From: Terriglobia bacterium
GTDB lineage: Bacteria; Acidobacteriota; Terriglobia; 20CM-2-55-15
Assembly: GCA_965198225.1 (NCBI GenBank)
Contig: CBDAOY010000005.1
Coordinates: forward strand, 288,001 to 352,000
DNA length: 64,000 nucleotides
Direction of reading: 5' to 3'
A model generated the notes under the pieces. It was not told the DNA's origin. It worked only from the letters and a program-made list of their open reading frames with translations, and did not search any database. This document shows positions 1,215 to 63,146 of this stretch, one piece after another (the first letter of the stretch is position 1; each line of letters opens with the position of its first letter). Position numbers and translations under genes: made by a program.

Positions 1215-1809
1215 GGACTGGGGCGAGTCCAGGAAACTGATCCTGACTCTAACCGCGGCCTTGCTCGTCCCCGCTCTACTGGTCCGTTTATTTCCAGGCC
1301 GATCCGAAGACTTCGCCAAAGGTCTGCTCGCCGGCCTGCTCGCCGGCGCCGGCTTCGGCTATGCCCAGTACTGCTTCCTCAACGAACGCCTCCGGAATAC
1401 ACTGGATCTTCTACTGAGCCTGCCGATTGAACCCCGCGACCTTGTGCTTGCCAAATACGTCTCGCTCTACTCGATGGTTCTCTTCACGGTAAACATCCCG
1501 GCCCTCTTCATCTCCAACCTCCAACTCATCTTCATCGTCAACGCCGCTGCTCTGTCCCTGGCAACACTGTTCATGGCCACCACCGTCATCTCCGACAAAC
1601 CCTGGGCCGCCCAGATCCCGATTTATCTGCTCCTGGTTTTTATCCTCCCCTCTGAACGCCTCCTCAACCGTTACTACCCTTCCGGCCTCGACCTCTTCCG
1701 CACCCTCACATCCCACCCCCTCCTCCTCGCCACCCTGGCCCTGCTCCTGACCCCCGCCCTGATCGCTGGATCGACGTTTTTTTTCACCACGGAGGCGCGG
1801 AAGCACTGA
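1168..1809 (+). CDS. ABC-2 type transporter permease
   Basis: Multi-TM hydrophobic protein with the NERLRNTLDLLLSLPI...VLAKY motif. It overlaps the ATPase gene. Confidence 0.8.
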   Translation: MQSVGFPRLALHIARKDWGESRKLILTLTAALLVPALLVRLFPGRSEDFAKGLLAGLLAGAGFGYAQYCFLNERLRNTLDLLLSLPIEPRDLVLAKYVSLYSMVLFTVNIPALFISNLQLIFIVNAAALSLATLFMATTVISDKPWAAQIPIYLLLVFILPSERLLNRYYPSGLDLFRTLTSHPLLLATLALLLTPALIAGSTFFFTTEARKH

Positions 1810-2214
1810 GGTGAGGTTTCATCCGGTGACCCGACAGGTTATCGGTGCTGCGATCGAGGTTCACAAGGCCATGGGTTCGGGTTTGTTGGAGTCCATCTAC
1901 CAAGAATGCCTCGAAGTCGAACTACGATTAAGGCGTGTCCGTTTCGAGCGCCAGAAGACGATCCCCTTGACATACAAAGGCGTGGAGGTTGGGGCGGCGC
2001 TCAGACTGGACCTACTTGTTGGAAACACGGTCATCGTGGAGATCAAAGCGGTCGAATCGATAACACCGGTGCATGAAGCTCAGTTAGTAACCTACCTACG
2101 GCTCACGGGCTGCTCTGTGGGCCTTTTGATCAACTTCAACGTGGAGGTACTTCGGAAGGGGGTCAAACGCATGATCAACTACAGGTAGCTCCGCGCCTCT
2201 GTGCCTCCGTGGTT
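1786..2214. mobile_element. Candidate element: GxxExxY gene bracketed by inverted tandem-octamer arms (family A)
   Basis: Left arm ACCACGGAG-GCGCGGAA-GCACTGAG (1786-1810) abuts the start codon. Right arm CTCCGCGC-CTCTGTGC-CTCCGTGGT (2189-2213) abuts the stop codon. Confidence 0.55.
1811..2188 (+). CDS. GxxExxY protein (PD-(D/E)XK nuclease-like)
   Basis: 125 aa with AAIEVH..GSGLLESIYQECL, RLDLLV..VIVEIKAV, HEAQLVTYL and GLLINF motifs. Confidence 0.9.
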   Translation: MRFHPVTRQVIGAAIEVHKAMGSGLLESIYQECLEVELRLRRVRFERQKTIPLTYKGVEVGAALRLDLLVGNTVIVEIKAVESITPVHEAQLVTYLRLTGCSVGLLINFNVEVLRKGVKRMINYR

Positions 2215-2222
2215 AACAAAAA

Positions 2223-2250
2223 CTTCGTGTTCTTCGTGCCTTCGTGTTCA
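2223..2250. repeat. Orphan right arm of a family B (CTTCGTG) tandem repeat
   Basis: CTTCGTGTT-CTTCGTGC-CTTCGTGTTCA resembles the right arm of 55428-55539. Confidence 0.6.
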
Positions 2251-2341
2251 AAAAAATCGTCCCAACACGGACCATTTTCGAATCAGGCCAACCCATTTCA
2301 GTCAGTTGCGTTGTTGGAACCCCATTTGCCTCAATGTGGGG

Positions 2342-3595
2342 GTGCGGTACCCAATCGTCCACCAACACGACTCCAACGACCGCGGGCCGGCATGCCTGTC
2401 AATGGTCGCCGCCTACTACGGCGAACGTCAGTCCATCGCCCGTCTTCGGGAGCGATCCGGAACAGATCGTCAGGGCACCAACCTTGCCGGGCTGATCCAG
2501 GCGGCTGAAGACATCGGCCTCCAGGCGCGAGGCGTCCGGACCGACATGGACGGGCTCGACGAATTAGGCTTGCCCGCGATCGCACACTGGTCCGAAGATG
2601 GCCGAAACCACTTCGTCGTGTTGTTCAAAAAGTCCCGACGCAAGGCAACGATCGGTGATCCCGCGCTCGGCCGCAGAAGGCTCCCCGTCGACGAATTCCA
2701 GAAACACTGGACCGGCGTGCTTGGCCTCCTCAAGCCGACTCCCGACCTGAAAGGTCTCTCCGAGACTTCCTATACGAAACTCTGGTCTCTACTACGGCAT
2801 CACAGGAAGATCTTCCTGGATGCCCTGCTCGCGGCAGTCCTGATGACCGTCCTCGGCCTCTCCTCGTCTTTCTTCATCCAAGCCCTCGTCGACTTCGTGT
2901 TCGTCATCGGACGCGAACCCACCCTGAACTGGCTCGGCCTGGGCATGCTGCTCGTGCTTCTGGCGCGCGTAGCATTCCTCGGACTCCGGGCCTATCTACT
3001 GGCTCACCTCAGCCAGAGGATCGATGCAGATGTGATTCTGGGTTACCACCACCATCTGCTGGGGCTGCCGCTCTCCTTCTTCGAGTCACGCCGCACCGGA
3101 GAGATTCTCTCTCGCCTGAACGACGCGACAAAAATTCGTTCGGCCGTCAGCGGGACAGGCCTTGCCGTAATCGTGGACTCTATGATGCTGGCTTTGACCG
3201 CCTCTGTCATGTTCTGGATGCACTGGAAGCTGGCGCTTCTATCGCTCTCGTTGATGCCGGCAATGGTAGCTACGGTCTGGGGTCTGACCGGACCGATGAA
3301 ACGCGCGCAACGGACGGCGATGGAGCGCGCCGCCGGTTTCGAATCCCACCTGGTCGAGGCCATCGGAGCCATGCCTACCGTCAAAGCCTTCTGCGCGGAA
3401 GACAGGCTGCGGGTCCGGGGCGAGGCACGACTGATGGAAACGATCGACGCCGGCTTTCGCGCCCAGATGTTTGCCCTGCATTCATCGACGACGACCGCAC
3501 TGCTGGCTGGAGCTTCGGGTCTCGGCCTGCTCTGGTTCGGTGGACACGAAGTTCTGGCAGGGCGGTTAACCGTCGGGCAACTGATGGCCCTATAG
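2342..3595 (+). pseudogene. Peptidase C39-containing ABC exporter (PCAT), N-terminal half
   Basis: C39 motifs QHDSNDRGPACL, GTNLAGL..AAE, HFVVL and IGDPA are followed by the ABC TM domain. The frame ends abruptly at LTVGQLMA(L)* with no ATPase domain. Confidence 0.85.
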
Positions 3596-3862: not shown

Positions 3863-4294
3863 TCAAGAGAGTTGAGGGAGGATGGTGAAGCCTTCGTTGC
3901 GGGCGGCCTGAAGTAGTCTGGAATCAAGGCAGACGAAGTCGAGTCCCCGGGGCTGGTTGCCGCTCCCGAAGATCGAAGCTGCCAGTTGAAGGGAGTCGGC
4001 GGCTCGCAGCGGATGCAGGAGCACCGATCGGCTGGCCCCGTCGCGGATCCGCTCGCTCGGCACAAGTTCGACCCACGAGGCTCTTAACCCTTCGAGTACT
4101 GCGCGCGCCTCATCTTCGTCCTGCCGGGTGAATACCCCTTCTCTGCGAATCCGGGCGAACGCCGAGTGGCATTCAACTACGGTTCCCCACCAGACCACGA
4201 TCACCGGGTCGTCAGTAGCGATCCGTTCCAGAAGGGCAGTCCGGGGTTCTTCAAGGCAGAGAGGAATGATTGCGGAAGCGTCCCAGAACTTCAT
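3863..4294 (-). CDS. vapC: VapC-family PIN-domain toxin
   Basis: N-terminal FWDASA, LRAADSLQLAA and FVCLDSRL..AA..EG PIN motifs. 4-bp overlap with the antitoxin gene. Confidence 0.85.
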   Translation of the reverse strand: MKFWDASAIIPLCLEEPRTALLERIATDDPVIVVWWGTVVECHSAFARIRREGVFTRQDEDEARAVLEGLRASWVELVPSERIRDGASRSVLLHPLRAADSLQLAASIFGSGNQPRGLDFVCLDSRLLQAARNEGFTILPQLS

Positions 4295-4584
4295 CGCCCC
4301 TCGGCCCGTTCGTCTTCCAATGCTTTGAGGGCGGCTCCCGCTTCATCGAAGGGGCGCCGCATCTTCCAGAGGCTCTTAGGCAACTTGCAGGTACCAACAC
4401 GTGCCAGGCCTAAACTCGCCAGCTCAGTCAAATGAGGTGAGAGTCTGGCGTCCCCCTGTGGGAACGGTATGATCTTCGCGATCGGTTTGCCGCGCTCCGT
4501 TACGACGACCTCCTGGCCTGCTTTGACCTGTGCCAGGAATTCGCTGAGCGTCGCTTTTAGCTTGGATACGGTTGTGGTCGACAT
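4291..4584 (-). CDS. Phd/YefM-family antitoxin
   Basis: VSKLKATLSEFLAQVKAGQEVVVTERGKPIAKI is a typical prevent-host-death N-terminus. Confidence 0.88.
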   Translation of the reverse strand: MSTTTVSKLKATLSEFLAQVKAGQEVVVTERGKPIAKIIPFPQGDARLSPHLTELASLGLARVGTCKLPKSLWKMRRPFDEAGAALKALEDERAEGR

Positions 4585-4632: not shown

Positions 4633-5853
4633 TCAAGGCTCTGGGTTCGTGACAGAGGTGTGGCGGCCCGGCTCCGACGCTTGTACGTTCCTGAACTTGC
4701 TGAACAAGAGCGACAACAGACTCTCCGTCCGTATAGTGAAACGAACCTCCAGAGCCAGGCCCAGGGGGAGATCCTGGGCCTCGTCAAAGTCAATCAGAAC
4801 ACGGTAGGCTCCGGAGCCTGGGTCTCCGATCCGGGCGTCGGGAGCGATGGAGAGAACGGTTCCCCCGAGACTTTCCGGGCCAGTCATGACGAGCCGGACC
4901 TGTTGCCCCGGGCACACGTTTTCGGCCTCCCGGTTCGGGAGCCAGGATTCGATCACCTGGACCGTCGGCGTGCGTGCCATCGTCGCTACGAGCGTTCCTG
5001 CGGGAAGGTGTTCGCCTGAGTGGAGGGCGGCGAATGAAACCAGCGTTCCGGTCACCGGGCTCCGGATGATCAACCGTTGCCGGTCCGTTTCGGCACGGTC
5101 TACCCGGAGCCTGAGGTCGGCGAGCTGTTTCTCGATCGGGATCTGTTCGCTCCCAAGCTGTCGTTGGCGGCCTTTGAACTGTGAACGTTTGAGAACGCGG
5201 GCTTGACGAAGGTCCTCGAGAACCGCCTCTTCAGGTGGGCGAGCTTCGATTTCCTCCTTTTGGGCTCTGGCCAGTCGGAGTGCTCGCTCGACCTCGGACT
5301 GGGATTGTTGAGATACGACGCCTTCCTCGAGCAGTTGTCGGTTCATCTCGCGTCGCTCCAGGGCGTCCGATATGCGCAGCTCGGCGGCGTGCAACTGGAT
5401 CTGATGTTCCTGGCGCCGTCGCTTGATCGCTTCCCTCTCGGCCTGAATCTGGAGCTCCAGCCGCTGCATTTCCAGGTCGAACACGTGCCTCGCGTCAGCC
5501 TTCCTGAGGCCTGTTTCGCGGAGTTGTTCTTCTACGAGGAGGATCTGCTCCTGGAGCGTTTGGATCTGCGATCGGGTCTCTCGGTCTTCGAGCCGGACGA
5601 GAATGTCACCGGCCCTGACGTGATCACGTTCTCTGCCAGAGACGGCGGCTATGATCCCGGCAACTTCCGTGACGATCCGGACGACTCCACCTTCAGGTCG
5701 CACGACACCGAGTGCGCGAACGGTAACGTCGATCTTCGTGAAGTGCGCCCAGAGTGTCGCGAGGGCCAGGATGCCTGCCAGCATGTACAGGGTTGCACCC
5801 AGGAGGGACGGGGATCGTCCCAGGTTGAGGTCAGGCCCCGAGCGCGTACGCAC
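4633..5853 (-). CDS. HlyD-family membrane fusion protein (type I secretion adaptor)
   Basis: N-terminal TM segment, lipoyl-like motif V.AGDILVRL, long coiled coil and IRSPVTG. Confidence 0.85.
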   Translation of the reverse strand: MRTRSGPDLNLGRSPSLLGATLYMLAGILALATLWAHFTKIDVTVRALGVVRPEGGVVRIVTEVAGIIAAVSGRERDHVRAGDILVRLEDRETRSQIQTLQEQILLVEEQLRETGLRKADARHVFDLEMQRLELQIQAEREAIKRRRQEHQIQLHAAELRISDALERREMNRQLLEEGVVSQQSQSEVERALRLARAQKEEIEARPPEEAVLEDLRQARVLKRSQFKGRQRQLGSEQIPIEKQLADLRLRVDRAETDRQRLIIRSPVTGTLVSFAALHSGEHLPAGTLVATMARTPTVQVIESWLPNREAENVCPGQQVRLVMTGPESLGGTVLSIAPDARIGDPGSGAYRVLIDFDEAQDLPLGLALEVRFTIRTESLLSLLFSKFRNVQASEPGRHTSVTNPEP

Positions 5854-6646
5854 GTTCCTCGATGTGGAAGGTCCGGTCGATGGGCAGAGGCTCGTGGGAG
5901 ATCACGAGCGTCGTCCGGTGTCCGCGGCGCCGTTCGATCAGGCTGCGGACGGCGGCTGTCGACGTGCGGTCGAGGTGGTTTGTCGGTTCGTCGAGTACCA
6001 GGATAGGCGGCTCGAGAAGGATCGCGCGCGCCAGGGCGATCCTCTGGCGCTCGCCCCCGGATAGCGTCATGCCGCGCTCGCCGATCACGGTGTCGTACCC
6101 CAGCGGCATCCGGTTGACGATCTCATCGACGTGTGCCAGACGGGCGGCCGTGCGCACCTCCTGTGCATCGGCGGACGGACGACCCAGGCTGACGTTGCCG
6201 GCGATCGAGATACTGAGCAGGTCGGCGTCCTGCGAGACGAAGACCACCTGCCGGCGGAGGTTCTCCAGGTCGTAGTCTCGGACGTCGATCCCGTCGATGA
6301 GAACGCGTCCGGACGACGGTTCAATGAATCGGCCGAGCAGGCGAACAAGCGTTGTCTTCCCGCTTCCGCTTCCACCTGCGATCCCGACGCACTCCCCTGG
6401 TTCGATTCTCATGCAGATGCCCTCGAGAACAGGATGGCGGCTCCCGTACCGGAAGCCCACGTTGCGAAATTCGATCGATCCCGCCAGTCTGCGTTCAACT
6501 GTTGAAGTAGATTTACGCCTCTTCTCGCCTTCGGCCTGAAACATTTCTCCCAGACGTTCAGCAGCGACCATTGCGTCCTGGATCGACTGGTTGGCGTTCG
6601 CCAGCCGCTCGATCGGCCCGAGGGCCGTTCCCAGCATGGTGTAGAA
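5831..6646 (-). pseudogene. PCAT C-terminal half (end of TM domain plus ATPase), inverted relative to its N-terminal half
   Basis: Reads FYTMLGTALGPIERL...GGSGSGKTT...LSGGERQRIALARA..LVLDEPT and directly continues GQLMA from 3589. Confidence 0.85.
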
Positions 6647-7133
6647 TCCTTATCAACCTTCGAGCGTACTGCTCGGTCGAAACAAAGTGTAGATGACTCA
6701 ACTTCGTCATGGAATGCCGGAGGGCATCATCGATCGCTCCGCTGGTGACCTCGCCACCATGAATGTGCGCGATCGGGATCTTGAACGGAAGAGCTGCCAG
6801 CGAAGCCGCATGCATCTCGAACCGGTCTCCCAGCACCACCAGCATGTCGGGACTGACCGAGCCATACAACCTGGAGAACCCAGACACGCACTGCCCCATC
6901 GATTCCGCGATGCCTGCGGGGCTATCCGACGCCAGTGGAATCGGGACCCGCAACGAGGTGTCCCAACCCTCCTTTTCGATGTCACGCACGCTCTCCCCGA
7001 ACTCAGGAGACAGATGCATCCCCGTCACGAACAACTTCAGGTCCAGCGATAACTCGGCTCGTACGGTCCGGAGGAGCGGCCGGTATATGCTGTAATCAGC
7101 GCGACTTCCTGTGACCACCCCGAGTGTTCTCAC
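6647..7133 (-). pseudogene. neuC: UDP-N-acetylglucosamine 2-epimerase (hydrolysing), 3'-truncated
   Basis: VTGSRADY, VTGMHLSPEFG, VLGDRFE, HIHGGE and RHSMTKLSHLHF motifs. Only ~160 aa are present before the inversion junction. Confidence 0.85.
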
Positions 7134-8182
7134 GACACCATGTCCAGACTGAACAACGCACCCTCAGCGATGTCCTGAACCGTGCGTCGCCCGACCAGCT
7201 CGCCGCGTAGCGACGGTAGGAGACCGGTACCGGGTCGCTTGACGGCGATCATGTCCTCGGTCAGCATCGTTCCCGCGGGAATGGACTGCGAGGCCACGAG
7301 GCTCTTCCTGGCGACCGCGGCCGTACCGGCCTCGCTTGGCGCCGGCTCTTTGCGGCCATTGCCCAGTGCCGACTCGACGATCCGAATACCTGCTACAAGC
7401 GCTCCCAGTTCGGCCGGCTCGACAGACGCTTCGTGGTCGGGCCCGGGTAACGACCGATCCAGCGTGAAGTGTTTTTCGACCACGCTCGCTCCAAGCGCTC
7501 TCGCGGCGAGCGCGACCTGGATCCCGGACGTGTGATCCGAGTACCCGACCGGCAGATTGAATGCATCGCGCATCGTCCGCATCGCCCTCAGGTTAACCAC
7601 AGCCGGATCGGCCGGGTAGTTGCTGACGCAATGCAGGAGCAGTATCTGGTGGTTCCCGGAACCATCGATCGCACGGACGGCCTCTCTTACTTCTTCGAGT
7701 GTAGCCATACCGGTCGAAACGATCATCGGTTTGCGCTTGGCTGCGACGTGGGAAAGAAAGGGCAGGTTCGTGAGCTCGCCGGATGGTATCTTGAACGCAG
7801 GCACTTCCAACGTTTCGAGAAAGTCCGCACTGTTCTCGTCAAACGGAGTCGACAGAAACAGGACCCCACGCTCACGACAGTAGTCCTGGAGTTCCTGATG
7901 GGCGGCCGCGTCCAGTTCCAACCGCCGAAGCATTTCAAATTGAGTTTCCGCTGCGCCGGTCGTGCGAACCTGGTAGTCGGCCTTCGGTGAGTGTCGAGTA
8001 ACGATATTCTCAGCCCTGAAGGTCTAAAACTTAACGGCATCGGCTCTGGCCTCGACGGCCACATCGATCAGGCGCCGGGCCATCCCAACGTCACCGTTAT
8101 GGTTTACTCCGGCCTCCGCTATGATGAAACAAGGCTGATCCTCCCCGATCTGCCGTCCGTGGATATTGATGCAATCTACCAA
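7130..8182 (-). pseudogene. neuB: N-acetylneuraminate/legionaminate synthase with an internal stop
   Basis: FIIAEAGVNHNGD...ADAVKF*TF has TAG at 8026-8024 in place of the conserved Gln. The rest is intact (GYSDHT, EKHFTLDR, SAF domain). Confidence 0.85.
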
Positions 8183-22505: not shown

Positions 22506-24042
22506 GAGTCTGCGCGGCAGAGCGCAAAGAACTCGGACTGATTGGGATTTGAGAGGGTCTTCGGAGGAGAATCGACCGATTCTTCCGATACGACGAGTTC
22601 AGAGTTGTACGGACACCCGTAATTGGCCGTGTATCGGGTCTGCCGGGTTGCGGTTTTCCGGATTATGCCCATTCGATCTTCCCGTTCATCCGTCGTAAGT
22701 TCACCGCCAGAGTGACCAGATTCCACTCCCCGGTCACTTTGTCCAAACCGCGTAGACTGAACTGTCGGAATCCGAGCACCGACTTGATCCACCCGAAGGG
22801 CGGCTCACCAATGTGCTTTCGGGCCCGGTAGCGGTCACGCCCACGCTTGGTTTTCATCTTTCTCATCATCCGACCAACAGCGGTGTCTTTGGGTGGGAGT
22901 GGGGCACGGGCGAGATCCTTCTCGCGACCCATCGCAACATACCCGTCAATCTGACGTTGTTCCAACATCCCCAGATTTGACTCGGATCGATATCCCGCAT
23001 CGGCCAGCACGCGGTCGGGACGCTCCCCCAGATTGTCGCTCAACGCATCCAGCGTGGGTTCCAACTGCCCCACATCCGATGCATTGTCAGTCACCGTTGT
23101 TGCCACGATGATCCGGGCCTGGGAATCCACCACCGCTTGCGCGTTGTAGCATTGCTGGAACCCTTCGGTGGAGGTCTTCATCATCCGGCTTTCCGGGTCG
23201 GTGAAGTTGTCCTGGGCCGTGGGTTTAGGTTCCCCCATGGGACGTTTGAATGGCTTCTTTCCGCATCCGGGTTTGTGATCTTTGGTGTTCCGTCCCGCTT
23301 CCTTGTCCGCGGCCATCTGACGTTCTTCGAGCCGCTTCATGGCCGCCTGTATCGTGGCCAGGCGCTTCTTGCGCGTGGCCAACCCGTCGGGCAGTTCGTC
23401 TCCGCGCCGGTCCTTGCCGTATCGCTCGTCTTCGTCCTCATCGGTCGCCTCGGCCCGGTTCAACAGATCCCGAATCTGTTCACCCAATTCGGTCTCCTGC
23501 TTTTTCATGCGTTCGTAGCTCATCGCTTTGCGTTTGCTTGCATTCGCCCGCATCTTGGTCCCGTCCACCGCCACGGTTCCCATCTTCACCAGTCCCGCTT
23601 CCCGCGCCATCATCACCACTTGCACAAACAGGTTTCCGAACTCCTCAAGATGCAGTTTGCGAAAATCCGAGATCGTTCGGTGCGCCGGAAAGTTCTCCGC
23701 TCCCAACATCCGGAACGCTACGTCGTCGGTCAACTTCGCCGCGATCTTCCTGGACGAGAACACTCCGGTCGCGTACCCATAAATCAGCACCTTCACCATC
23801 ATCCGCGGATCAAACGCCTGATTGCCCGGACCCTCGGTTCCATACCGCTGTTCGAACGCGCTCAAATCCATCGCGTCCACCGCGTCCGATATGAAGTACG
23901 ACAGGTGATCTTCGGCCAACCAATCTCTCAACGACGGTGGCATCAGCAGTGTTTGTTCTGGGCTATAAGTCCGATAGGTTCGTGCCATGACATATCTTCG
24001 ATCTTTATCCGCCCAATTCCGGTCCTTCTGCCGCGCAGACTC
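22506..24042 (-). mobile_element. Insertion sequence, IS1182 family (1537 bp)
   Basis: 16-bp perfect TIR GAGTCTGCGCGGCAGA, CTAG on both sides and a single transposase. Confidence 0.9.
22663..23988 (-). CDS. IS1182-family DDE transposase
   Basis: LMPPSLRDWL, SSRKI, AVDGTKMRANAS, TDPESR, YNAQ, LADAGY and EPPFGWIK...GFRQF.LRGL.KV. Confidence 0.9.
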   Translation of the reverse strand: MARTYRTYSPEQTLLMPPSLRDWLAEDHLSYFISDAVDAMDLSAFEQRYGTEGPGNQAFDPRMMVKVLIYGYATGVFSSRKIAAKLTDDVAFRMLGAENFPAHRTISDFRKLHLEEFGNLFVQVVMMAREAGLVKMGTVAVDGTKMRANASKRKAMSYERMKKQETELGEQIRDLLNRAEATDEDEDERYGKDRRGDELPDGLATRKKRLATIQAAMKRLEERQMAADKEAGRNTKDHKPGCGKKPFKRPMGEPKPTAQDNFTDPESRMMKTSTEGFQQCYNAQAVVDSQARIIVATTVTDNASDVGQLEPTLDALSDNLGERPDRVLADAGYRSESNLGMLEQRQIDGYVAMGREKDLARAPLPPKDTAVGRMMRKMKTKRGRDRYRARKHIGEPPFGWIKSVLGFRQFSLRGLDKVTGEWNLVTLAVNLRRMNGKIEWA

Positions 24043-37452: not shown

Positions 37453-37636
37453 TTAACCGGATTGCACGGACAGGAAGAAGCTAGCCACGGATTACACGGA
37501 TTGCACGGACAGGCAGAACCCTATGGTCTGCCCTCCGAAAGACCACTCCCAATCCGTTAAATCCGTGCAATCCGTGGCAATCCGTGGCTGAATTCATCCG
37601 CGCAATCCGTGGCTGGATCTCTCCGCGCAATCCAGG
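37453..37636. repeat. Family C element: inverted arms of tandem 9-mers (NCACGGATT / AATCCGTGN)
   Basis: Multiple units on each side of a TGGTCT..AGACCA hairpin. Homologous to 59619-59790 in reverse orientation. Confidence 0.85.
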
Positions 37637-38281: not shown

Positions 38282-38299
38282 CACGAACGGAAGAGGACT

Positions 38300-38383
38300 A
38301 ACCACGGAGGCGCAGAGGCACGGAGTTCTTAGTATTTCAAGCAGACCCTGAGACGATCCTCCGCGCCTCCATGTCTCCGGGGT
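38300..38383. repeat. Family A inverted tandem-octamer element (empty)
   Basis: ACCACGGAG-GCGCAGAG-GCACGGAG...CTCCGCGC-CTCCATGT-CTCCGGGGT. Confidence 0.8.
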
Positions 38384-39636: not shown

Positions 39637-42177
39637 GTGCGTTGGCACCACTATATCCTCGTGATGTTGGCGGCCACCCTAGAGTCTGCGCGGCAGAAGA
39701 AACCCGGTACCTGTGTGCTAAGTGCTGCGCACACACACATGCTGTGGTCACAATGACCCAAAATCGTTCTACCGCGCAGACTCCTAGCCGCACTGATCGT
39801 GGGCATCGTCGCTTCACCCCACCTGGATCCGTTCTTCGTCTGGCTGACCCTGATTCCGACGCTTCTGATTTCCTTCCTCCGTCCCAAATGCCTCTTGCTT
39901 GCCTTCTGTCTAATCGGAGCCGGCCATCGCGCAAACCAGGAAGTCCGGCCTCCGGTAATCTTAGATGACGGATACCCCCGGCGGGTCGTCGCCGTGCTGG
40001 AAGGACCGCCCGAATGGAGGGATCCCGGTTACCACTTCGATGTCGACATCCGGACGCTCGACGGAAGACCATGGCGGGGTCGAGCCCGACTCTCCTTTTT
40101 CCCCGACGACGACAGGCTGGACGACCTGTTCAGTAAACTGGAGTTGGGAACCGGAGACCGCGTCGAAGTCCTCACCCGACTTCGCCCTCCACGCTCCTAC
40201 CGCAATCCCGGCGTGTTCGACTACCGGCGCTACCTGGCCCGTCACGGAATATTCTGGGCTGGTTCGATCCGAAACCCCCGGTTGATTCAGGTCCTCAACG
40301 GATCCTGGCACGGTGAGGACAGATTCCGGAAGTCGGTCACCGAACGCATCGGCCGGTTCTTCGACTCTGACGAAACGATCCGGGGTCTGGTACTGGGTAT
40401 GGTGCTCGGACAGCGTCGGAGACTTCCGGCCGATGATGTCCGCCGGTTTCAGGCGGCCGGCCTGATTCACCTCCTCGTCGTGTCCGGGTTCAACCTCGCG
40501 GTCGTGGCCGCGAGTGCGCTGTGGCTCGGGCGGCGGCTTCGGTTCGGACGGTTCCAGCGAGCCGGACGATATCTCTTCGCACTCGTCGCAATCCTGACCT
40601 ACGCCGCTCTCGTCGATGGCCAGAGTCCCGTCGTGCGGGCCACGCTGATGGCATCGATCCTGATTCTAGGAAAGCTGATGGACCGTGGTTACTCCATCGG
40701 AAACGCGCTCGCGGCGAGCGCTATCCTGATTCTGATCGCGGACCCGTCGGCGCTGGAGGATCCCAGCTTCCAGCTCACATTTGCGGCGGTACTGGCCATT
40801 CAAGTACTCGGAGTGCCGCTGATTCGGTGGCGTCTCGGGTGGCTGCGGCTGGCTTTGCGGAGTTTCTCCAGGACGGAACCGGACATGGCGGTGCCGTCTG
40901 ACGTTGCCGATTGGCGTGTGTCAAGACGCCTCCGGTGTGAGTTCGGCGGATGGCCGCACACGACGATCACCCTACCGTGGACGATCCTCGCGGCGTTCGC
41001 CGAAACGGCCCTCGTCACCCTGTCGGTACAATTGGTCCTCGTCGGGTTCATGGTCGAATCTTTTAACCTGCTCTCCCCCATCACGGTCCCGCTCAACGTG
41101 GTAGGCGCGGTCGTCGCCGCTGTCATCACGCCGCTCGGTCTTCTCCTGATCCTCCTGCCCCACTTCGCGGGTCTTATCGTCGCCGGACTCATGTCTGCGC
41201 TGCTCCATTTCCTGATCTTGTCGGTCGATCTGGGCCTGCGAGTCCCAGGAGCCAGTTTTCGGGTACCGTCCCCTCCCGGCGAGGTCTGGGCAATCTACGC
41301 CCTGACCGTTCTCTCGTTCATGTTCTCCATCCGACGACGCTCGCCCCGGGCGGCGCTGTTGAGCCTGGCAGCTGCCTACACTCTGCAGGCTTTGATCGTC
41401 GGCGCGGATTTCGACCCGGTTCCGCCGCGACACGCCACCTTGACCTTCCTGGACGTCGGCCAGGGGGATTCGAGTCTGGTCGAACTCACCGATGGCACGC
41501 GCGTTCTCATCGACGGAGGGGGTTCCACCACGGCACGCTACCGGTCAGCTGAGGGCCACGGGACGTTTTCTGTGGGAGAAGACGTCCTGACGCCCTACCT
41601 CTTCTCGCGCGGCATTCGCCGCCTGGACGTCGTCGCGCTGACCCACGCCCACCAAGATCACATGGGCGGTCTGTTCGATCTGATCCGGAATTTCCGGATT
41701 GGTGAGATCTGGCTCGGGCGGAACCCCATGACGGCGCGCTACCGCGAGTTGTTGCAGGAGGTGTATGAACACCAGATTCCCATCCGCTGGCTTCGGGCGG
41801 ACGATCGAATCAAAGGTTTCGAAGTGTTGAACCCGCCGCGGGACTGGAAAGCGGCCGGCAGGGTAAAGAATGACGACTCGCTCGTCTTGCTCTTGAGAAC
41901 CGAGGACGGGTCTGCGCTATTGACCGGGTATCTCGAACGTTCCATTCCGGCACCGGACTTCGTAGAAGTGCTCAAAGTGCCGCACCATGGCAGCAAGAAC
42001 ACAAACCTCCGGGTTCGTGCGCAACTACCGGTCATCTCCGTCGGAGCCAACAACCCGTTCAGACACCCCCACCCGACCAAGCTGCCGGCCCTCCGCACCG
42101 ACATCCTGGGAGCCATCCAGGTCGTGCTGACCCCGGACGGCCCCGTCGTATCGTTCCCTGGGCTGAAGGAAGAATAA
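39637..42177 (+). CDS. comEC: ComEC/Rec2 competence protein, with its 5' end interrupted by a MITE
   Basis: PRSYRNPGVFDY, HLLVVSGFN, RATLMA, SFQLTF, FLDVGQGDS and THAHQDHMGG. The native start is probably GTG 39637; an alternative GTG is at 39799. Confidence 0.85.
39682..39783. mobile_element. MITE (102 bp) sharing TIRs with the IS1182 element
   Basis: GAGTCTGCGCGGCAGAA...TTCTACCGCGCAGACTC, with CTA duplicated at 39679 and 39784. Confidence 0.85.
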
Positions 42178-42340
42178 CCACGGAGGCACAGAGGTCTTGG
42201 AGGGTAGGGTCGTTCACCGACTTTTCTGCTGTAGTGAACACCCGGGGACAGGGCCAGGCCCCTGTCCCCCTCACGTCCGTTCTCTCACGGCACCGTACGC
42301 GCACCGAAAAACCTCCGTGCCTTCGTGTCTCCGTGGTTAA
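42175..42340. repeat. Family A element carrying an internal GGGGACAGGG..CCCTGTCCCC palindrome
   Basis: Arms TAACCACGGAGGCACAGAGG and CCTCCGTGCCTTCGTGTCTCCGTGGTTAA. The interior is homologous to 63066-63146. Confidence 0.8.
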
Positions 42341-47296: not shown

Positions 47297-47336
47297 CACC
47301 TGTCCCGTCCGTCAACACTAAATCCAAGACCGTTTT

Positions 47337-47410
47337 AACCACGGAGGCACGGAGATTCTGATGTCGGGAGAATTGTGTCAATGAACTCCGGGCCTCCGCG
47401 TTTCTGTCGT
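47337..47410. repeat. Family A element (degenerate, empty)
   Basis: AACCACGGAG-GCACGGAG...CTCCGGGC-CTCCGCGT-TTCTGTCGT. Confidence 0.65.
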
Positions 47411-47500
47411 CAAGGCGAATCTTGGATTTGGCGCCCGCGCTACGGGAACCGACGCCGGCCGTAGTGGCACAACCAAACTACGGCAAAACAACTTTTTCCA

Positions 47501-47560
47501 GCCACAGAGGCACGGAGGCCATTGACTCAAAGACTCCGTGCCTTTGTGCCTCCGTGGTTA
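47501..47560. repeat. Family A element (empty)
   Basis: GCCACAGAG-GCACGGAG...CTCCGTGC-CTTTGTGC-CTCCGTGGTTA. Confidence 0.8.
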
Positions 47561-47579
47561 ATTCCTTCTATTGCCTCGG

Positions 47580-50297: not shown

Positions 50298-50350
50298 ACC
50301 ATTAGTTTACCCCACCCGAACACGCTGGCTCGAAGCAAGGCTTCCTTTTC

Positions 50351-50426
50351 ACCACGGAGGCACAGAGGCACGGAGGTTCTCGATGAAATCCGAATCAGAT
50401 GCTCCGTGCCTCCGTGCCTCCGTGGT
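50351..50426. repeat. Family A element (empty, near-consensus)
   Basis: ACCACGGAG-GCACAGAG-GCACGGAG...CTCCGTGC-CTCCGTGC-CTCCGTGGT. Confidence 0.85.
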
Positions 50427-50838
50427 CAATCTCCAGTCGTCTTGTGTGGTCGTCGACGTAGGTCAGGGAAACACGTGTGGCGGGGCCGGGGTCGAAGTTG
50501 CCGAGACGTTCGGCCCATTCCACGACCACCGCGGCCGCGGGTTCATCGAACATGTCTTCCAGGCCCAGATCGTCGAGCTCGCCTGACTCGATGCGGTAGA
50601 GGTCGACATGGTAGATCGGTATCCGCGCCGCGTACTGATTGACGAGCGTGAAGGTCGGGCTGGATACGTCGTCGACGTCGTCCAGACCCAGACCGGCGGC
50701 CAACCCCTTCGTGAACGTTGTCTTCCCGGCTCCGAGTTCACCGAAGAGCAGGACGTGAACGGGCAGTTCCAGCGTGCCGGCCAGTTCCCGGGCAAACTCG
50801 AATGTCTGCTCTTCGGATTTGGACAAAAAGCTGGTCAT
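50395..50838 (-). CDS. tsaE: tRNA threonylcarbamoyladenosine biosynthesis ATPase
   Basis: GELGAGKTTF, VSSPTF, HVDLYR and VEWAE. Confidence 0.93.
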   Translation of the reverse strand: MTSFLSKSEEQTFEFARELAGTLELPVHVLLFGELGAGKTTFTKGLAAGLGLDDVDDVSSPTFTLVNQYAARIPIYHVDLYRIESGELDDLGLEDMFDEPAAAVVVEWAERLGNFDPGPATRVSLTYVDDHTRRLEIDHGGTEARSI

Positions 50839-50852
50839 CGGATTCTATTTTC

Positions 50853-50980
50853 ACCACGGAGGCGCGGAGGCACGGCGGGTAACGGACAGGACCTCGGGGA
50901 GTTCAGGCACTGCGGCAAATCAAGCGAAATACGGAGCACCAAACCCGACCGACTGCCTCAACTCCGTGCCTCCGTGGTTA
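50853..50980. repeat. Family A element
   Basis: ACCACGGAG-GCGCGGAG-GCACGGCG...CTCCGTGC-CTCCGTGGTTA. Confidence 0.8.
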
Positions 50981-50983
50981 GAA

Positions 50984-55427: not shown

Positions 55428-55539
55428 TTTCAACACGAAGTCACGAAGGACACGAAGAAGAGGGATCTTTTTCATCACCTAGGATCCCCGGGGGAAAACC
55501 TTCGTGTTCCTTCGTTCCCTTCGTGACTTCGTGTTGAAA
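55428..55539. repeat. Family B element: inverted arms of CACGAAG units
   Basis: TTTCAACACGAAG-TCACGAAG-GACACGAAG...CTTCGTGTTC-CTTCGTTCC-CTTCGTGA-CTTCGTGTTGAAA. Confidence 0.85.
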
Positions 55540-59566: not shown

Positions 59567-59618
59567 GTCTGAACCTCCGCGACGCATTATAAGCGAACGG
59601 TTCGGGGTTCGGGGTTTT

Positions 59619-59790
59619 CCACGGATTGCACGGAAACCACGGATTGCGCGGAGGGTTCTTTCAGCCACGGATTACACGGATTTAACGGATTAGGAATGGT
59701 CTTTCGGAGAGCAGACCACAGGTCTTTTCCTATCCGTGCAATCCGTGTAATCCGTGGCTTGCTTCTTCCTCTCGGTGTAATCCGTGTTAA
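59619..59790. repeat. Family C element (inverted copy of 37453-37636)
   Basis: CCACGGATT and AATCCGTG units with the shared TGGTCT..AGACCA core. Confidence 0.85.
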
Positions 59791-59816
59791 AGGACCCTCA
59801 CGAAAGCTGATATGAT

Positions 59817-59962
59817 CATCCCGAACTTCGGATGAGGGAAAGCGGTGAGATTCCGCTGCTGCCCCGCAACTGTAAGACGACTCTTCCCTGCTACAGCCAC
59901 TGCCAGCTACGCTGGCGGGAAGGCGCCCGCGAAACCGCTGTCGTCAAGCCAGGACACCTCCC
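59817..59962 (+). ncRNA. Cobalamin riboswitch
   Basis: AGGGAA..CGGTG..GCCCCGCAACTGT..AGCCACTG..GGGAAG..AAGCCAGGACACCT upstream of a TonB-dependent receptor. Confidence 0.9.
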
Positions 59963-59993
59963 GGAGGAGATTACCTTTCGAGGGAGAGGGACC

Positions 59994-62141: not shown

Positions 62142-63016
62142 ACCACATCGGACGATTCGCGGGTACGCTGATGTACGTCCTCCTGCTGCTGTCGTGCTCG
62201 GGATCCCAGACCGTGGAAATCCCCGGGCCAGAGGCTCCGGAGCGAATCGTCTCGCTCGTTCCCGCCGTGACGGAAATGCTGTTTGCACTCGGGGCCGGTG
62301 AGCGGGTCGTCGGCGTCAGCGACTACGACTCTTATCCACCAGAAGTCCTGGATTTGCCGAAGGTCGGGGCACTCATCAACCCGAACCTGGAGAAGATCTT
62401 CGAATTGCAACCGGAAATGGTGATCACCTACGGAACCCAGGCCAACCTGCGAGAGCGGCTCGACGCCGCCGGAATCCGCTCACGCTCTTTCCTGCATGGC
62501 CCGATCGACGAAATGCTGGATTACGTGCTCGAACTGAGCCATGAACTCCGGATGCAGATCGAGGGGCGCCGCCTGGTCGACGAAATCCGCGGCGAACTGG
62601 ACGCAATCCGAGGTGGCGCGTCCGGGTATCGACCCCGTGTCCTGCTGGCCCACAGCCGGGAAGTGGGCACGATGGGGTCGTTCTACAGCGGAGGCGGCGA
62701 ATCGTTCTTCAACGAGCTGATCGAGATCGGCGGGGGTGTCAACATCTTTGGTGATGTCGAGGACGACTCGATCCAGCCATCACTGGAAGAGGTTCTCAAA
62801 CGCCGCCCCGAGATCATCATCGAGCTGCTGCCGTCCAACAGGGATGACCCCGATCAGATCGCCCAGCGAATCCAGGATTGGGGGCAGCTCGAAACCCTGC
62901 CCGCAGTTCAACAGGAACGTGTCCACGTCCTCGCGGGGGACTACCTTCTCCTGATCGGCCCCCGGCTCCACCTTGCCGCCCGACGATTCGCTGAAGTGAT
63001 CAGGGAAGAAGAATAA
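62138..63016 (+). CDS. btuF: Cobalamin-binding periplasmic protein, BtuF-like
   Basis: RIVSLVPAVTEMLFALG, VVGVS.Y..YP and PNLEKI. Confidence 0.78.
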   Translation: MNHIGRFAGTLMYVLLLLSCSGSQTVEIPGPEAPERIVSLVPAVTEMLFALGAGERVVGVSDYDSYPPEVLDLPKVGALINPNLEKIFELQPEMVITYGTQANLRERLDAAGIRSRSFLHGPIDEMLDYVLELSHELRMQIEGRRLVDEIRGELDAIRGGASGYRPRVLLAHSREVGTMGSFYSGGGESFFNELIEIGGGVNIFGDVEDDSIQPSLEEVLKRRPEIIIELLPSNRDDPDQIAQRIQDWGQLETLPAVQQERVHVLAGDYLLLIGPRLHLAARRFAEVIREEE

Positions 63017-63146
63017 CCACGGAGGCGCGGAGACACGGAGGTCTTGCTCTTTCGTTAAGCGCATAGTGCCGCGAGAGAACCAATGTGAGGGGGACAGGGC
63101 TGGCCCTGTCCCCGGGTGTCCGCTTCAGCAGAAATGCCCGTGAACG
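63014..63146. repeat. Family A arm plus internal palindrome (inverted partial copy of 42175-42340)
   Basis: TAACCACGGAG-GCGCGGAG-ACACGGAG followed by ...GGGGACAGGGC-TG-GCCCTGTCCCC... Confidence 0.8.

What the first reader, a model, noticed from the sequence alone, without database searches (positions are those of the whole stretch)
1786..2214. GxxExxY nuclease-like gene boxed by tandem-octamer inverted arms that also occur as empty copies across the window: candidate new mobile element system
Seen: the gene is flanked with zero spacing by three 8-bp units (consensus GCACGGAG) before its GTG and three inverted units (CTCCGTGC) after its TAG. The same arms, with unrelated short fillers in place of the gene, occur at 38300, 42175, 47337, 47501, 50351 and 50853, and a single arm occurs at 63014. 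Most end in (T)AACC...GGTTA(A) and all lie just 3' of genes. Known: GxxExxY proteins are ~130-aa PD-(D/E)XK-like proteins of unknown function. They are neither DDE nor HUH transposases. Inference: this looks like an autonomous element plus non-autonomous derivatives, analogous to RAYT/REP, where the protein binds or cuts the CACGGA arrays. It is inserted in the middle of a bacteriocin operon.
Basis: partly seen in the sequence, partly recalled or inferred. Interest (0 to 1): 0.85.

Follow-up and report, generated by a model that had tools for sequence, protein, structure and literature searches.

The report
Nuclease gene inside octamer-repeat hairpins
A small nuclease-like gene of unknown function sits inside a DNA hairpin built from repeated 8-base units, gene-less copies of the hairpin are scattered nearby, and the same pairing recurs in many bacterial and archaeal phyla, which suggests an undescribed selfish or repeat-tending DNA element.

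Summary
A GxxExxY gene (1811-2188; TIGR04256/PF13366) is boxed by three octamers on each side. All six gene-less hairpins and the lone arm exist.

The pairing is general. In 80 loci from at least 17 phyla plus the window, 43 of 81 GxxExxY genes are boxed by inverted tandem 8-10-mers, against 5 of 1135 control ORFs. 76 of 81 have at least one arm.

Hairpin loop lengths are bimodal: under 200 bp, or 350-600 bp when the gene is inside. One filled/empty site exists. Sphingomonas parapaucimobilis has fabD-[arm-gene-arm]-fabG, while S. paeninsulae has fabD-fabG with no arms.

Two nonamer hairpins in the window are 88% identical copies, loop included. Arm class follows the protein tree modestly.

The elements mostly persist at fixed sites inside operons. 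No target duplication was found, and no test shows that the protein acts on the arms.

The arms were described in 2009 in Geobacter metallireducens as putative regulator sites. My searches found no paper linking them to this gene.

Best reading: a REPIN/RAYT-like system run by a PD-(D/E)XK nuclease (confidence about 0.5).

The parts
1785..1810 (+). Left arm: terminus CACC, then three 8-mers (CACGGAGG type). It overlaps the last codons and the stop (1807-1809) of the upstream ABC-2 permease ORF.
1811..2188 (+). GxxExxY gene, 125 aa, a PD-(D/E)XK-type nuclease fold. E27, D67, E77 and K79 are invariant in 22 aligned homologs.
2189..2217 (+). Right arm: three inverted 8-mers (CTCCGYGC type), then the terminus GGTTAAC.
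2223..2252 (+). Orphan arm of a second class (three CTTCGTG units, A-run after it). No partner arm was found upstream.
38299..38382 (.). Gene-less hairpin, CACGGAG class.
42175..42340 (.). Gene-less hairpin, CACGGAG class, loop of about 115 bp. It shares its left flank and an inner GGGGACAGGGCC palindrome with the arm at 63014.
47336..47402 (.). Gene-less hairpin, CACGGAG class (two units per arm).
47499..47562 (.). Gene-less hairpin, CACGGAG/CACAGAG class.
50349..50430 (.). Gene-less hairpin with three units per arm, the best-paired copy (DNA fold -32.6 kcal/mol, z -9.3).
50851..50981 (.). Gene-less hairpin, CACGGAG class, loop of about 85 bp.
63014..63042 (+). Single arm (three units). No partner arm up to the window end.
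37482..37611 (.). Gene-less hairpin of the nonamer class (CACGGATT), with extra right-arm units in a 25-bp tandem repeat.
59618..59790 (.). Nonamer-class arms. The hairpin 59660-59762 is an 88% identical, inverted copy of 37482-37592, loop included. One extra arm lies on each side of it.
55429..55537 (.). Gene-less hairpin of the CACGAAG class.

Best explanation
The unit is a hairpin-repeat element. Each of its two arms is an array of about three 8-10-bp units (core C-R-C-N-R-A-G) ending in TT(C/A)ACC. The full form carries one small gene for a GxxExxY PD-(D/E)XK nuclease between the arms. The short form is the two arms with a loop of under 200 bp.

Proposed mechanism, all of it inferred. The nuclease recognises the unit arrays, as duplex or as an extruded hairpin or cruciform, and nicks or cuts there. 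Host recombination and repair then copy or move arm-bounded segments. The gene-less hairpins would therefore be maintained and spread in trans by a usually low-copy, mostly vertically inherited nuclease gene that sits between its own repeats. This is the logic of REPIN/RAYT systems with an unrelated enzyme and a different repeat design. The full element lodges in spacers inside operons, usually co-oriented with them, so host transcription probably expresses it.

Shown: the anatomy, the specificity and breadth of the gene-arm linkage, copying of whole hairpins, and one gain of arms plus gene as a unit.

Inferred: that the protein acts on the arms, and how copies are made.
For: (1) Linkage. 43 of 81 genes are boxed by inverted arms against 5 of 1135 control ORFs. 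76 of 81 against 215 of 1135 have any arm within 80 bp. A motif-free inverted-repeat score of at least 14 is reached by 44 of 79 genes against 22 of 1130 controls.

(2) Breadth. The 77 rows put into the tree come from 17 named phyla, including two archaeal loci. All 8 plasmid-collection records were inspected. 4 have inverted arms, 1 has a full hairpin on each side, 2 have direct repeats holding an AATCCGTG-type unit or tandem 9-10-mers, and 1 is unclear.

(3) The cargo is almost only this gene. Distances from a forward arm to the next reverse arm are bimodal: 69 of 134 under 200 bp and 46 of 134 at 350-600 bp. Few other ORFs lie inside arms.

(4) Abundance. Arms of at least 3 units number 230 in 1.28 Mb against 0-2 in shuffles. 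Density is 0.57 per kb at 100-500 bp from the gene and about 0.06 per kb further out.

(5) An intact D...ExK-type site is invariant. The model is confident (pLDDT 89) and its best PDB matches are all PD-(D/E)XK nucleases (Cas4, Hjc, lambda exonuclease; E at best 6e-3).

(6) Gain as a unit. fabD-[arm-gene-arm]-fabG is compared with fabD-fabG without arms in a congener. Six other alphaproteobacterial records (H11-H13, H15-H17) show a short fabD-fabG span of 1686-1702 bp, close to the congener's 1699 bp.

(7) Copying of gene-less units. The hairpins at 37482 and 59660 are 88% identical, loop included, and in opposite orientation.

(8) Arm class clusters on the protein tree. There are 34 changes against 40.8 +/- 1.9, and 2 of 2000 shuffles reached that. 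Shuffled within phyla the figures are 30 against 37.5 and 0 of 2000. Phylum fits the tree poorly (35 changes for 17 phyla), as expected with lateral transfer.

(9) Two copies in one locus carry different arm classes (L018, L051).
Against: - There are no binding or cleavage data.
- No target-site duplication was found: 120 arm pairs look the same as mismatched controls.
- No near-identical gene-bearing copies were seen. Only 3 extra gene copies turned up in the roughly 20 kb around the 81 genes.
- The same operon-internal site is kept in pairs of related genomes: gatA-gatB, trpE-trpG and MoxR-DUF58. It is also kept at this window's permease locus down to 67% identity. Movement of the gene must therefore be rare.
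- Other topologies do not fit a simple terminal-inverted-repeat transposon: RF 7, RR 1, FF 3 and one-sided 22 of 81.
- S. parapaucimobilis has the gene with arms, yet only 1 doubtful arm of at least 3 units in 150 kb. Only 32 of 80 loci have such an arm more than 500 bp away.
- Two arm classes in the window have no gene within 64 kb.
- The 80 loci are those closest to the query (49-64% identity, best 80 of 583). Whole-genome correlation was not testable.
- Tree clustering can arise from shared ancestry alone.
Confidence: 0.5

Rival explanations
1. Host-serving repeat system. The arm pairs are protein-binding or structural sites: nucleoid or regulator sites as proposed for Geobacter, or transcript-end or processing stems. 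GxxExxY is then the cellular factor that binds, trims or resolves them, and its gene is flanked by its own sites for autoregulation. Nothing is mobile beyond ordinary duplication.
For: The elements persist at fixed sites inside operons across related genomes. They are co-oriented with both neighbours in 45 of 68 cases against 294 of 716 control triples; ORFs there were called by a crude longest-ORF rule that picks some shadow ORFs. Most arm units look like ribosome-binding sites (GGAGG, AGAGG) and 11 of 44 left arms end within 3 bp of the start codon. Passages of PMC2700814 interpret paired triple TCTCCGTS(Y) repeats as sites for an unidentified global regulator or IHF/HU.
Against: This does not explain why arms and gene arrive together at a site that lacks them in relatives. 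It does not explain the poor fit of the protein tree to phyla, or why whole hairpins with their loops are copied in both orientations. There is no strand bias between G:U-type and A:C-type mismatches, as RNA stems would give: 186 against 184, and 50 against 37 (p 0.2) with strict alignment. No T-run follows the stems, and there is no Rfam family.
Confidence: 0.25
2. Homing-type selfish gene. The hairpins are an independent host or parasite repeat family. The nuclease gene is a free-standing homing gene that cuts empty hairpins and is copied into them by repair, using the arms as homology.
For: Filled and empty hairpins share the same arms, and loop lengths are bimodal. Chains of hairpins sit next to the gene. 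Several arm classes occur per genome, with different classes on different gene copies. It is recalled, not checked here, that some homing endonucleases have the PD-(D/E)XK fold.
Against: The Sphingomonas empty site has no hairpin, so the arms came with the gene there. That genome stretch has practically no empty hairpins to invade. Arms of about 24 bp are short for homology-directed repair. Gene copies are few while empty hairpins are many.
Confidence: 0.15
3. No functional link. Tandem-octamer hairpins are common intergenic repeats in these genomes, and short genes merely fall between them by chance or through assembly artefacts.
For: 215 of 1135 control ORFs also have some arm within 80 bp. 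Many of the loci come from metagenome-assembled genomes.
Against: Boxing is about 250-fold enriched (odds ratio 256, p 8e-51). It also holds in complete isolate records: Bacteroides finegoldii, Bernardetia, Sphingomonas and Gemmatirosa.
Confidence: 0.03

Closest known systems
REPIN/RAYT systems (REP doublets and REP-associated tyrosine transposases). Seen as search listing and abstract starts only: PMC3116915, PMC3337134, 10.1101/2022.05.22.493013.
   Same: Both have short intergenic hairpins made of two inverted repeat copies, present in many gene-less copies. Both have a low-copy, mostly vertically inherited gene for a nucleic-acid enzyme flanked by its own repeats. Neither shows a target duplication.
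   Different: The enzyme here is a 125-aa PD-(D/E)XK protein, not an HUH/Y1 transposase. Each arm is an array of about three 8-10-bp units rather than one palindromic REP. The gene usually lies inside one hairpin. The range spans at least 17 phyla, archaea included. Mobility is not shown.
'Class 2 (and class 1) global regulator binding sites' of Geobacter metallireducens. Passages of PMC2700814 were read. Its supplementary PDFs were not seen.
   Same: 21 paired sites on opposite strands, each of three tandem repeats with consensus TCTCCGTS(Y), at a variable distance. That is the reverse-strand unit of this window's arms. Class 1 sites have four tandem octamers.
   Different: They were read as IHF/HU or unknown-regulator sites in one genome. 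No associated gene is named, and the term GxxExxY does not occur in the text. Whether a GxxExxY gene lies within any pair there was not checked.
Intervening sequences of 23S rRNA that carry an ORF. Seen as abstract start of PMC4990558; the rest is recalled.
   Same: A small ORF of unknown role is enclosed by inverted repeats, sits inside a host transcription unit and is regarded as selfish.
   Different: Those lie in rRNA helices and are cut out of the RNA. They carry a four-helix-bundle protein. No tandem-unit arms are known for them, and none of the elements here is in rRNA.
MITEs and their parent insertion sequences
   Same: There is a full-length coding form plus short non-coding forms that share the same ends.
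   Different: There is no DDE or other transposase domain and no target duplication. Loops of the short forms are unrelated to the gene.
Free-standing homing endonuclease genes
   Same: A small nuclease gene whose flanks resemble its likely target.
   Different: There is no intron or intein. Empty targets number many per genome. The gene is mostly stable in place.

Membership tests
GxxExxY protein (TIGR04256 / Pfam PF13366 PDDEXK_3) | Score above the curated cut-offs over the full profile | tested here: met
   152.6 bits against a cut-off of 35, profile positions 2-116 of 116. 149 bits against a cut-off of 22.
PD-(D/E)XK nuclease superfamily | Conserved acidic and lysine residues (helix E, then D ... 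E-x-K) on an alpha-beta-beta-beta-alpha-beta core | tested here: met
   E27, D67, E77 and K79 are invariant in 22 sequences. The model has pLDDT 89 with that order of elements. The best PDB fold matches are Cas4, Hjc and lambda exonuclease, but they are weak (E 6e-3 to 0.1, TM 0.4-0.58). There is no sequence hit in the PDB.
REPIN/RAYT | The associated gene encodes an HUH/Y1 (IS200/IS605-like) transposase | tested here: not met
   PF13366 is the only Pfam match.
REPIN/RAYT | Gene-less units are two inverted repeat copies with a short spacer, in many copies per genome | tested here: met
   10 hairpins in 64 kb. 69 arm pairs with loops under 200 bp in 1.28 Mb.
REPIN/RAYT | The gene is flanked by its own repeat type, is low in copy number and is vertically inherited | tested here: inconclusive
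   Flanking holds in 76 of 81. There is one copy in the 64-kb window, and sites are shared in related genomes. Whole-genome copy number was not testable.
REPIN/RAYT | The enzyme binds and cleaves the repeat | not testable with these tools
   This needs biochemistry.
IS/MITE (DDE-type) | Transposase domain, terminal inverted repeats and a target-site duplication | tested here: not met
   There is no transposase domain. Inverted ends are present. Direct repeats at the ends are no longer than in mismatched controls (120 pairs).
Intrinsic terminators | A G+C-rich stem followed by a T-run | tested here: not met
   The stems are strong. The conserved flank is TT before the left end and AA after the right end, the opposite polarity.
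Known structured RNA families (Rfam 15) | Match at the gathering score | tested here: not met
   The only match in the window is the cobalamin riboswitch.
Integron cassettes (attC hairpins) | Cassette ORFs separated by attC sites next to an integron integrase | tested here: not met
   Some genes lie between two full hairpins. No integrase domain was found among 59 window ORFs, and the cargo is almost always the same family.

The most novel reading that the evidence does not exclude
GxxExxY proteins make up an orphan family of about 22,000 clusters at 50% identity. On this reading they are the enzymes of a pan-prokaryotic class of hairpin-repeat elements that has not been described before. A minimal 125-aa PD-(D/E)XK nuclease sits between arrays of 8-10-bp units and creates and maintains populations of gene-less hairpins. 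These include the 'global regulator sites' of Geobacter. It would work by a cut-and-repair route that uses no transposase or recombinase of any known family.
Probability: 0.4. Interest if true: 0.9.

Novelty: new variant of a known kind. Interest (0 to 1): 0.8.

Why it matters
It would give a first functional context to a very large protein family of unknown function. A search of 1.84 billion representatives found 22,145 at E up to 1e-3. The 2012 PD-(D/E)XK survey lists the family as 'Unknown'.

It would also explain a class of intergenic repeats that genome annotators have met without explanation.

If the nuclease really drives the hairpins, this is a second, independently evolved REPIN/RAYT-like intragenomic system. 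It would be far wider in taxonomic range, with an enzyme small enough to study easily.

The practical points hold even if the mechanism is wrong. The arms are translated into false N- and C-terminal extensions and false gene fusions in automatic annotation. The elements also split conserved operon pairs (fabD-fabG, gatA-gatB, trpE-trpG) without disrupting them.

Tried and rejected
- Homodimer prediction (two copies, alignment A1): no verdict, score 0.00. It counts neither way.
- Sequence search of the PDB with the family profile: no hit at E up to 1.
- Rfam at gathering score: nothing on the arms.
- Phage collection, protein mode: no match in 50,697 records.
- Target-site duplication: none beyond the control.
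- Strand bias of wobble-type mismatches, as a sign of an RNA stem: none.
- Whether the GxxExxY domain fused to the orthologous permease (P0247, 60% identical) is the true ortholog of the window's gene or a replacement: the free tree does not join them, but the AU test does not reject a clade (p 0.34). This is inconclusive.
- Remnants of the gene in hairpin loops: a profile search of all six-frame ORFs of at least 40 aa found only 3 further copies and no fragments.
- Paired check of arm density in two Sphingomonas replicons. 150 kb around the gene had 1 doubtful arm of at least 3 units, and 100 kb of the gene-less congener had 0. There is therefore no population of empty hairpins to compare.
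- Literature. 'GxxExxY' is held by 3 papers (2 listed). I read a passage of one, which names the domain next to a reverse transcriptase; the other I saw only as a listing. 'PDDEXK_3' is held by 1 paper, 'PF13366' by 2 and 'TIGR04256' by 0. Octamer-repeat terms gave only the Geobacter paper as relevant.
- Rejected idea: arms as ordinary terminators (no T-run).
- Rejected idea: arms as CsrA-type GGA sites (most classes lack GGA).
Full report
**The observation**

The window holds a 125-codon ORF from GTG 1811 to TAG 2188. It matches NCBIfam TIGR04256 'GxxExxY protein' (E 4.9e-45, full profile) and Pfam PF13366 PDDEXK_3 (E 9.4e-44).

Directly before it lie three 8-base units of the CACGGAGG type (1785-1810). 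Directly after the stop lie three inverted units followed by GGTTAAC (2189-2217). The upstream ABC-2 permease ORF runs into the left arm and stops inside it.

Counting a single 9-mer is weak evidence (39 against 27 expected). Clusters of at least two units spaced 7-10 bp are not: 23 observed against a mean of 3.2 and a maximum of 8 in 200 shuffles. As single strands the hairpins are much more stable than shuffles (z -2.0 to -11.6, eight of eight).

- a nonamer class (CACGGATT) at 37482-37611 and 59618-59790
- a CACGAAG class at 55429-55537
- an orphan CTTCGTG arm at 2223-2252, right behind the gene element

All of them lie between genes (Pfam scan of 59 ORFs). The window has 59.7% G+C. Its citrate synthase is 70% identical to one named Terriglobia protein, so it is probably an uncultured acidobacterium.

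**Is the pairing general?**

I built an alignment of the window's protein with 21 homologs. Of 583 confirmed matches the tool kept the 80 most similar (49-64% identity). The 77 rows later put into a tree come from 17 named phyla, including two archaeal loci.

Reading 70 bases before and 90 after each gene showed the same design almost everywhere. The tandem units are CACAGAG, CGCAGAG, CACGGAG, CACAAAG, CGCAAAG or CGCCAAG, pointing inward from an end of the form TT(C/A)ACC.

Regex test. A fixed regular expression (C-R-C-N-R-A-K, at least 2 units, spacing 7-10) finds 462 arms in 1.28 Mb against 37-52 in block shuffles. Arms of at least 3 units number 230 against 0-2.
- 43 of 81 genes are boxed by a forward arm before and a reverse arm after, and 76 of 81 have at least one arm within 80 bp.
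- The regex misses the window's own left arm, so the count is conservative.
- Among 1135 other ORFs of the same loci, 5 are boxed and 215 have any arm (odds ratio 256, p 8e-51).
- One of the five boxed controls is a second GxxExxY gene.

Motif-free test. I aligned 100 bases before each gene with the reverse complement of 100 bases after it. A score of at least 14 was reached by 44 of 79 genes, 22 of 1130 control ORFs, and 8 of 304 size-matched control ORFs.

Plasmid-collection records. All eight records that hold the gene were inspected:
- Four have inverted arms: Bacteroides finegoldii, Bernardetia, Sphingomonas parapaucimobilis, and Treponema with one unit per side.
- Gemmatirosa has a full hairpin on each side.
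- Prevotella and a fusobacterium (34-35% identical proteins) have direct repeats.
- Persicobacter is unclear.

**Anatomy**

In 44 boxed elements:
- The modal arm has 3 units (58 of 88 arms).
- Spacing is 8 (96), 9 (56) or 10 (16) bases.
- The commonest end is TTCACC.
- The left arm ends a median of 19 bases before the start codon, and within 3 bases in 11 cases.
- The right arm begins a median of 11.5 bases after the stop.

Distances from a forward arm to the next reverse arm are bimodal: 69 of 134 under 200 bp and 46 of 134 at 350-600 bp. Of the 350-600 bp pairs listed, all but two (L008 and the second copy in L051) hold the query gene. Other cargo is rare: a 154-aa ORF without a Pfam match in L008, and a small two-gene pair in L035.

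There is no target-site duplication (120 pairs against mismatched controls).

**Topologies that do not fit a simple box**

The regex classes are RF 7, RR 1, FF 3, one-sided 22 and none 5 of 81. By eye, the five loci scored 'none' still show degenerate or widely spaced units.

Looking wider:
- Several of these genes lie between two complete hairpins (L009, L032, L069, L070).
- One gene (L060) follows a complete hairpin and has a single reverse arm after it.
- Two (L008, L079) are truly inside-out, with the TT(C/A)ACC ends facing the gene. Both have a B12-binding-domain gene just downstream, and L079 has the methylmalonyl-CoA mutase gene upstream. L068 has the mutase gene's end upstream but a hydrolase downstream. 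L021 gave no Pfam match.

I have no explanation for the inside-out form.

**Where the elements sit**

They lie in spacers inside conserved gene pairs:
- ABC-2 permease and C39 exporter, in this window
- fabD-fabG in Sphingomonas
- gatA-gatB in two Opitutaceae, trpE-trpG in Betaproteobacteria (the trpG side was seen in L063 only), MoxR-DUF58 in two Bryobacteraceae, and mutase-B12 domain in Acidobacteriota

Both neighbours are co-oriented with the gene in 45 of 68 cases against 294 of 716 control triples (p 1e-4). The neighbour ORFs were called by a crude longest-ORF rule that sometimes picks shadow ORFs, so this number is rough.

**Signs of movement**

(1) Filled and empty site. S. parapaucimobilis has fabD, an arm of CGCGAAG units touching the ATG, the gene, a reverse arm inside the annotated C-terminus, then fabG. 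S. paeninsulae has fabD and fabG 35 bases apart with no arm. Six other alphaproteobacterial records (H11-H13, H15-H17) show the short span. Arms and gene were therefore gained together there.

(2) The nonamer hairpins at 37482 and 59660 are 88% identical over about 100 bases. That includes the loop and a few flanking bases, and the two lie in opposite orientation. The arms at 42175 and 63014 share their left flank and an inner palindrome.

(3) The protein tree fits phyla poorly: 35 changes for 17 phyla, against 46 in shuffles. The 2012 survey likewise notes 'multiple transfers' for this family (passage).

(4) Arm class clusters on the protein tree. There are 34 changes against 40.8 +/- 1.9, with 2 of 2000 shuffles as low. 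Shuffled within phyla it is 30 against 37.5, with 0 of 2000. 72 of 77 rows carried a label. Four loci were left out for frame or length problems. Shared ancestry can produce such clustering, so this is modest support.

(5) Two gene copies in one locus carry different arm classes (L018: CGCCAAG and CACGACG; L051: CACAGAG and CACGAAT).

**Signs of stability**

Orthologs of the upstream permease at 67-92% identity end in short tails that read as translated arms, of differing class. Examples are TTEARKH here, HRKGAKAQ-type tails and QRRDAETQR. One ortholog at 71% is annotated as a fusion with a GxxExxY domain. Orthologs at 65% identity or less lack such tails.

The element in this 'bacteriocin operon' is therefore old, not a fresh insertion. 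Whether the fused copy is the ortholog or a replacement could not be settled (AU p 0.34).

The gene is rare on plasmids (8 of 72,556 records) and was not found in phages.

Gene-less hairpins are not obligatory. 150 kb around the Sphingomonas gene hold one doubtful arm, while 40 kb of the Gemmatirosa replicon hold 11 arms. Only 32 of 80 loci have an arm of at least 3 units more than 500 bp from the gene.

**The protein**

E27, D67, E77 and K79 are invariant in the 22-sequence alignment. They fit the helix-E, D, E-x-K pattern of PD-(D/E)XK nucleases. That reading comes from established knowledge of the superfamily.

The AlphaFold model is confident (pLDDT 89.4, pTM 0.81). Foldseek finds only weak matches, all of them nucleases of that fold: Cas4 4r5q at E 6e-3, Hjc 2wiw, lambda exonuclease. 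No solved relative exists by sequence.

The family is large: 22,145 representatives at E up to 1e-3 and 7,460 at up to 1e-10. Among the best hits are natural two-domain proteins. In the four I read (P0279, P0280, P0282, P0283), the second domain has lost the glutamate of the GxxExxY motif and, by my reading, the acidic/lysine motif. This hints that the working unit is a dimer. A direct dimer prediction gave no verdict.

**What it most likely is**

The pattern is closest in logic to REPIN/RAYT systems (search listing and abstracts only). Such systems have many gene-less inverted-repeat hairpins and a low-copy, mostly vertically inherited enzyme gene flanked by the same repeats.

It is not a member of that family. 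The enzyme is unrelated, and the repeat is an array of short units.

I rate a nuclease-driven, repair-dependent copying system at about 0.5. A host-serving binding or processing system scores 0.25, a homing gene invading independent hairpins 0.15, and chance 0.03.

RNA-level selection on the stem is not supported. Wobble-type and A:C-type mismatches are equal (186 against 184; strict set 50 against 37, p 0.2).

**Prior knowledge**

The 2009 genome paper on Geobacter metallireducens (passages read) describes 21 paired sites on opposite strands. Each has three tandem repeats of TCTCCGTS(Y), which is the reverse-strand unit found here. A related class has four tandem octamers. The authors took them for sites of an unidentified global regulator or IHF/HU.

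That text does not contain the word GxxExxY. Its supplementary figures and tables are PDFs that I could not read.

Searches for GxxExxY, PDDEXK_3, PF13366 and TIGR04256 listed five different papers. I read passages of two and saw the other three only as listings; neither passage, and no listed title or abstract start, links the family to flanking repeats. The library lacks most subscription journals, so an earlier description cannot be excluded.

**Verdict**

The mobile-element reading is partly supported and its mechanism is untested.

Noticed in passing
window 59812-59979 (+): Cobalamin riboswitch (Rfam RF00174, 87.7 bits) ahead of a TonB-dependent receptor gene. The nonamer-class arms lie just upstream of it.
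   Followed up: no
window 2201-3595 (+) and 5831-6637 (-): The C39-peptidase ABC exporter looks split. The peptidase and membrane domains are on the + strand, ending at 3595. An ATPase domain that continues the sequence is on the - strand, beyond a Phd-type antitoxin pair (3863-4584) and a HlyD gene. This suggests an inversion. The neighbouring epimerase (6558-7133) and NeuB (7130-7933) ORFs match only parts of their profiles.
   Followed up: partly
No Pfam match.
   Followed up: no
window 22663-23988 (-): DDE transposase (DDE_Tnp_1 with DUF772) inside a sugar-modification gene cluster. It is unrelated to the hairpin elements.
   Followed up: no
window 42250-42275 and about 63080-63110: A palindrome of the GGGGACAGGGCC...GGCCCTGTCCCC type occurs inside the loop at 42175 and after the lone arm at 63014. 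It may be a second small repeat family.
   Followed up: partly
proteins P0279, P0280, P0282, P0283: Natural proteins with two GxxExxY domains in tandem. The first domain keeps the motif glutamate. By my reading the second has lost it, along with the acidic/lysine motif. That would make a built-in asymmetric dimer.
   Followed up: partly
homolog tails; P0247: Arms are often translated by gene callers into false extensions (for example ...LRVSVPPW...QRRRDAEKR...TTEARKH) and into a false permease-GxxExxY fusion. Such tails could serve as a protein-level marker of arms in databases.
   Followed up: partly
L008 717-1181; L035 2225-2859: Rare other cargo between arms: a 154-aa ORF with no Pfam match, and a pair of small ORFs of 85 and 126 aa that was not scanned against Pfam.
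   Followed up: partly
L081 (Gemmatirosa replicon, 40 kb): Two arm classes (CACGGAG/CACAGAG and CGCAGAG) share the same end, TTGAACC or TCGAACC, in one replicon. That makes 11 arms of at least 3 units in 40 kb.
   Followed up: partly
L021 10393-10491: A run of N directly after the gene masks the downstream flank in this locus.
   Followed up: no
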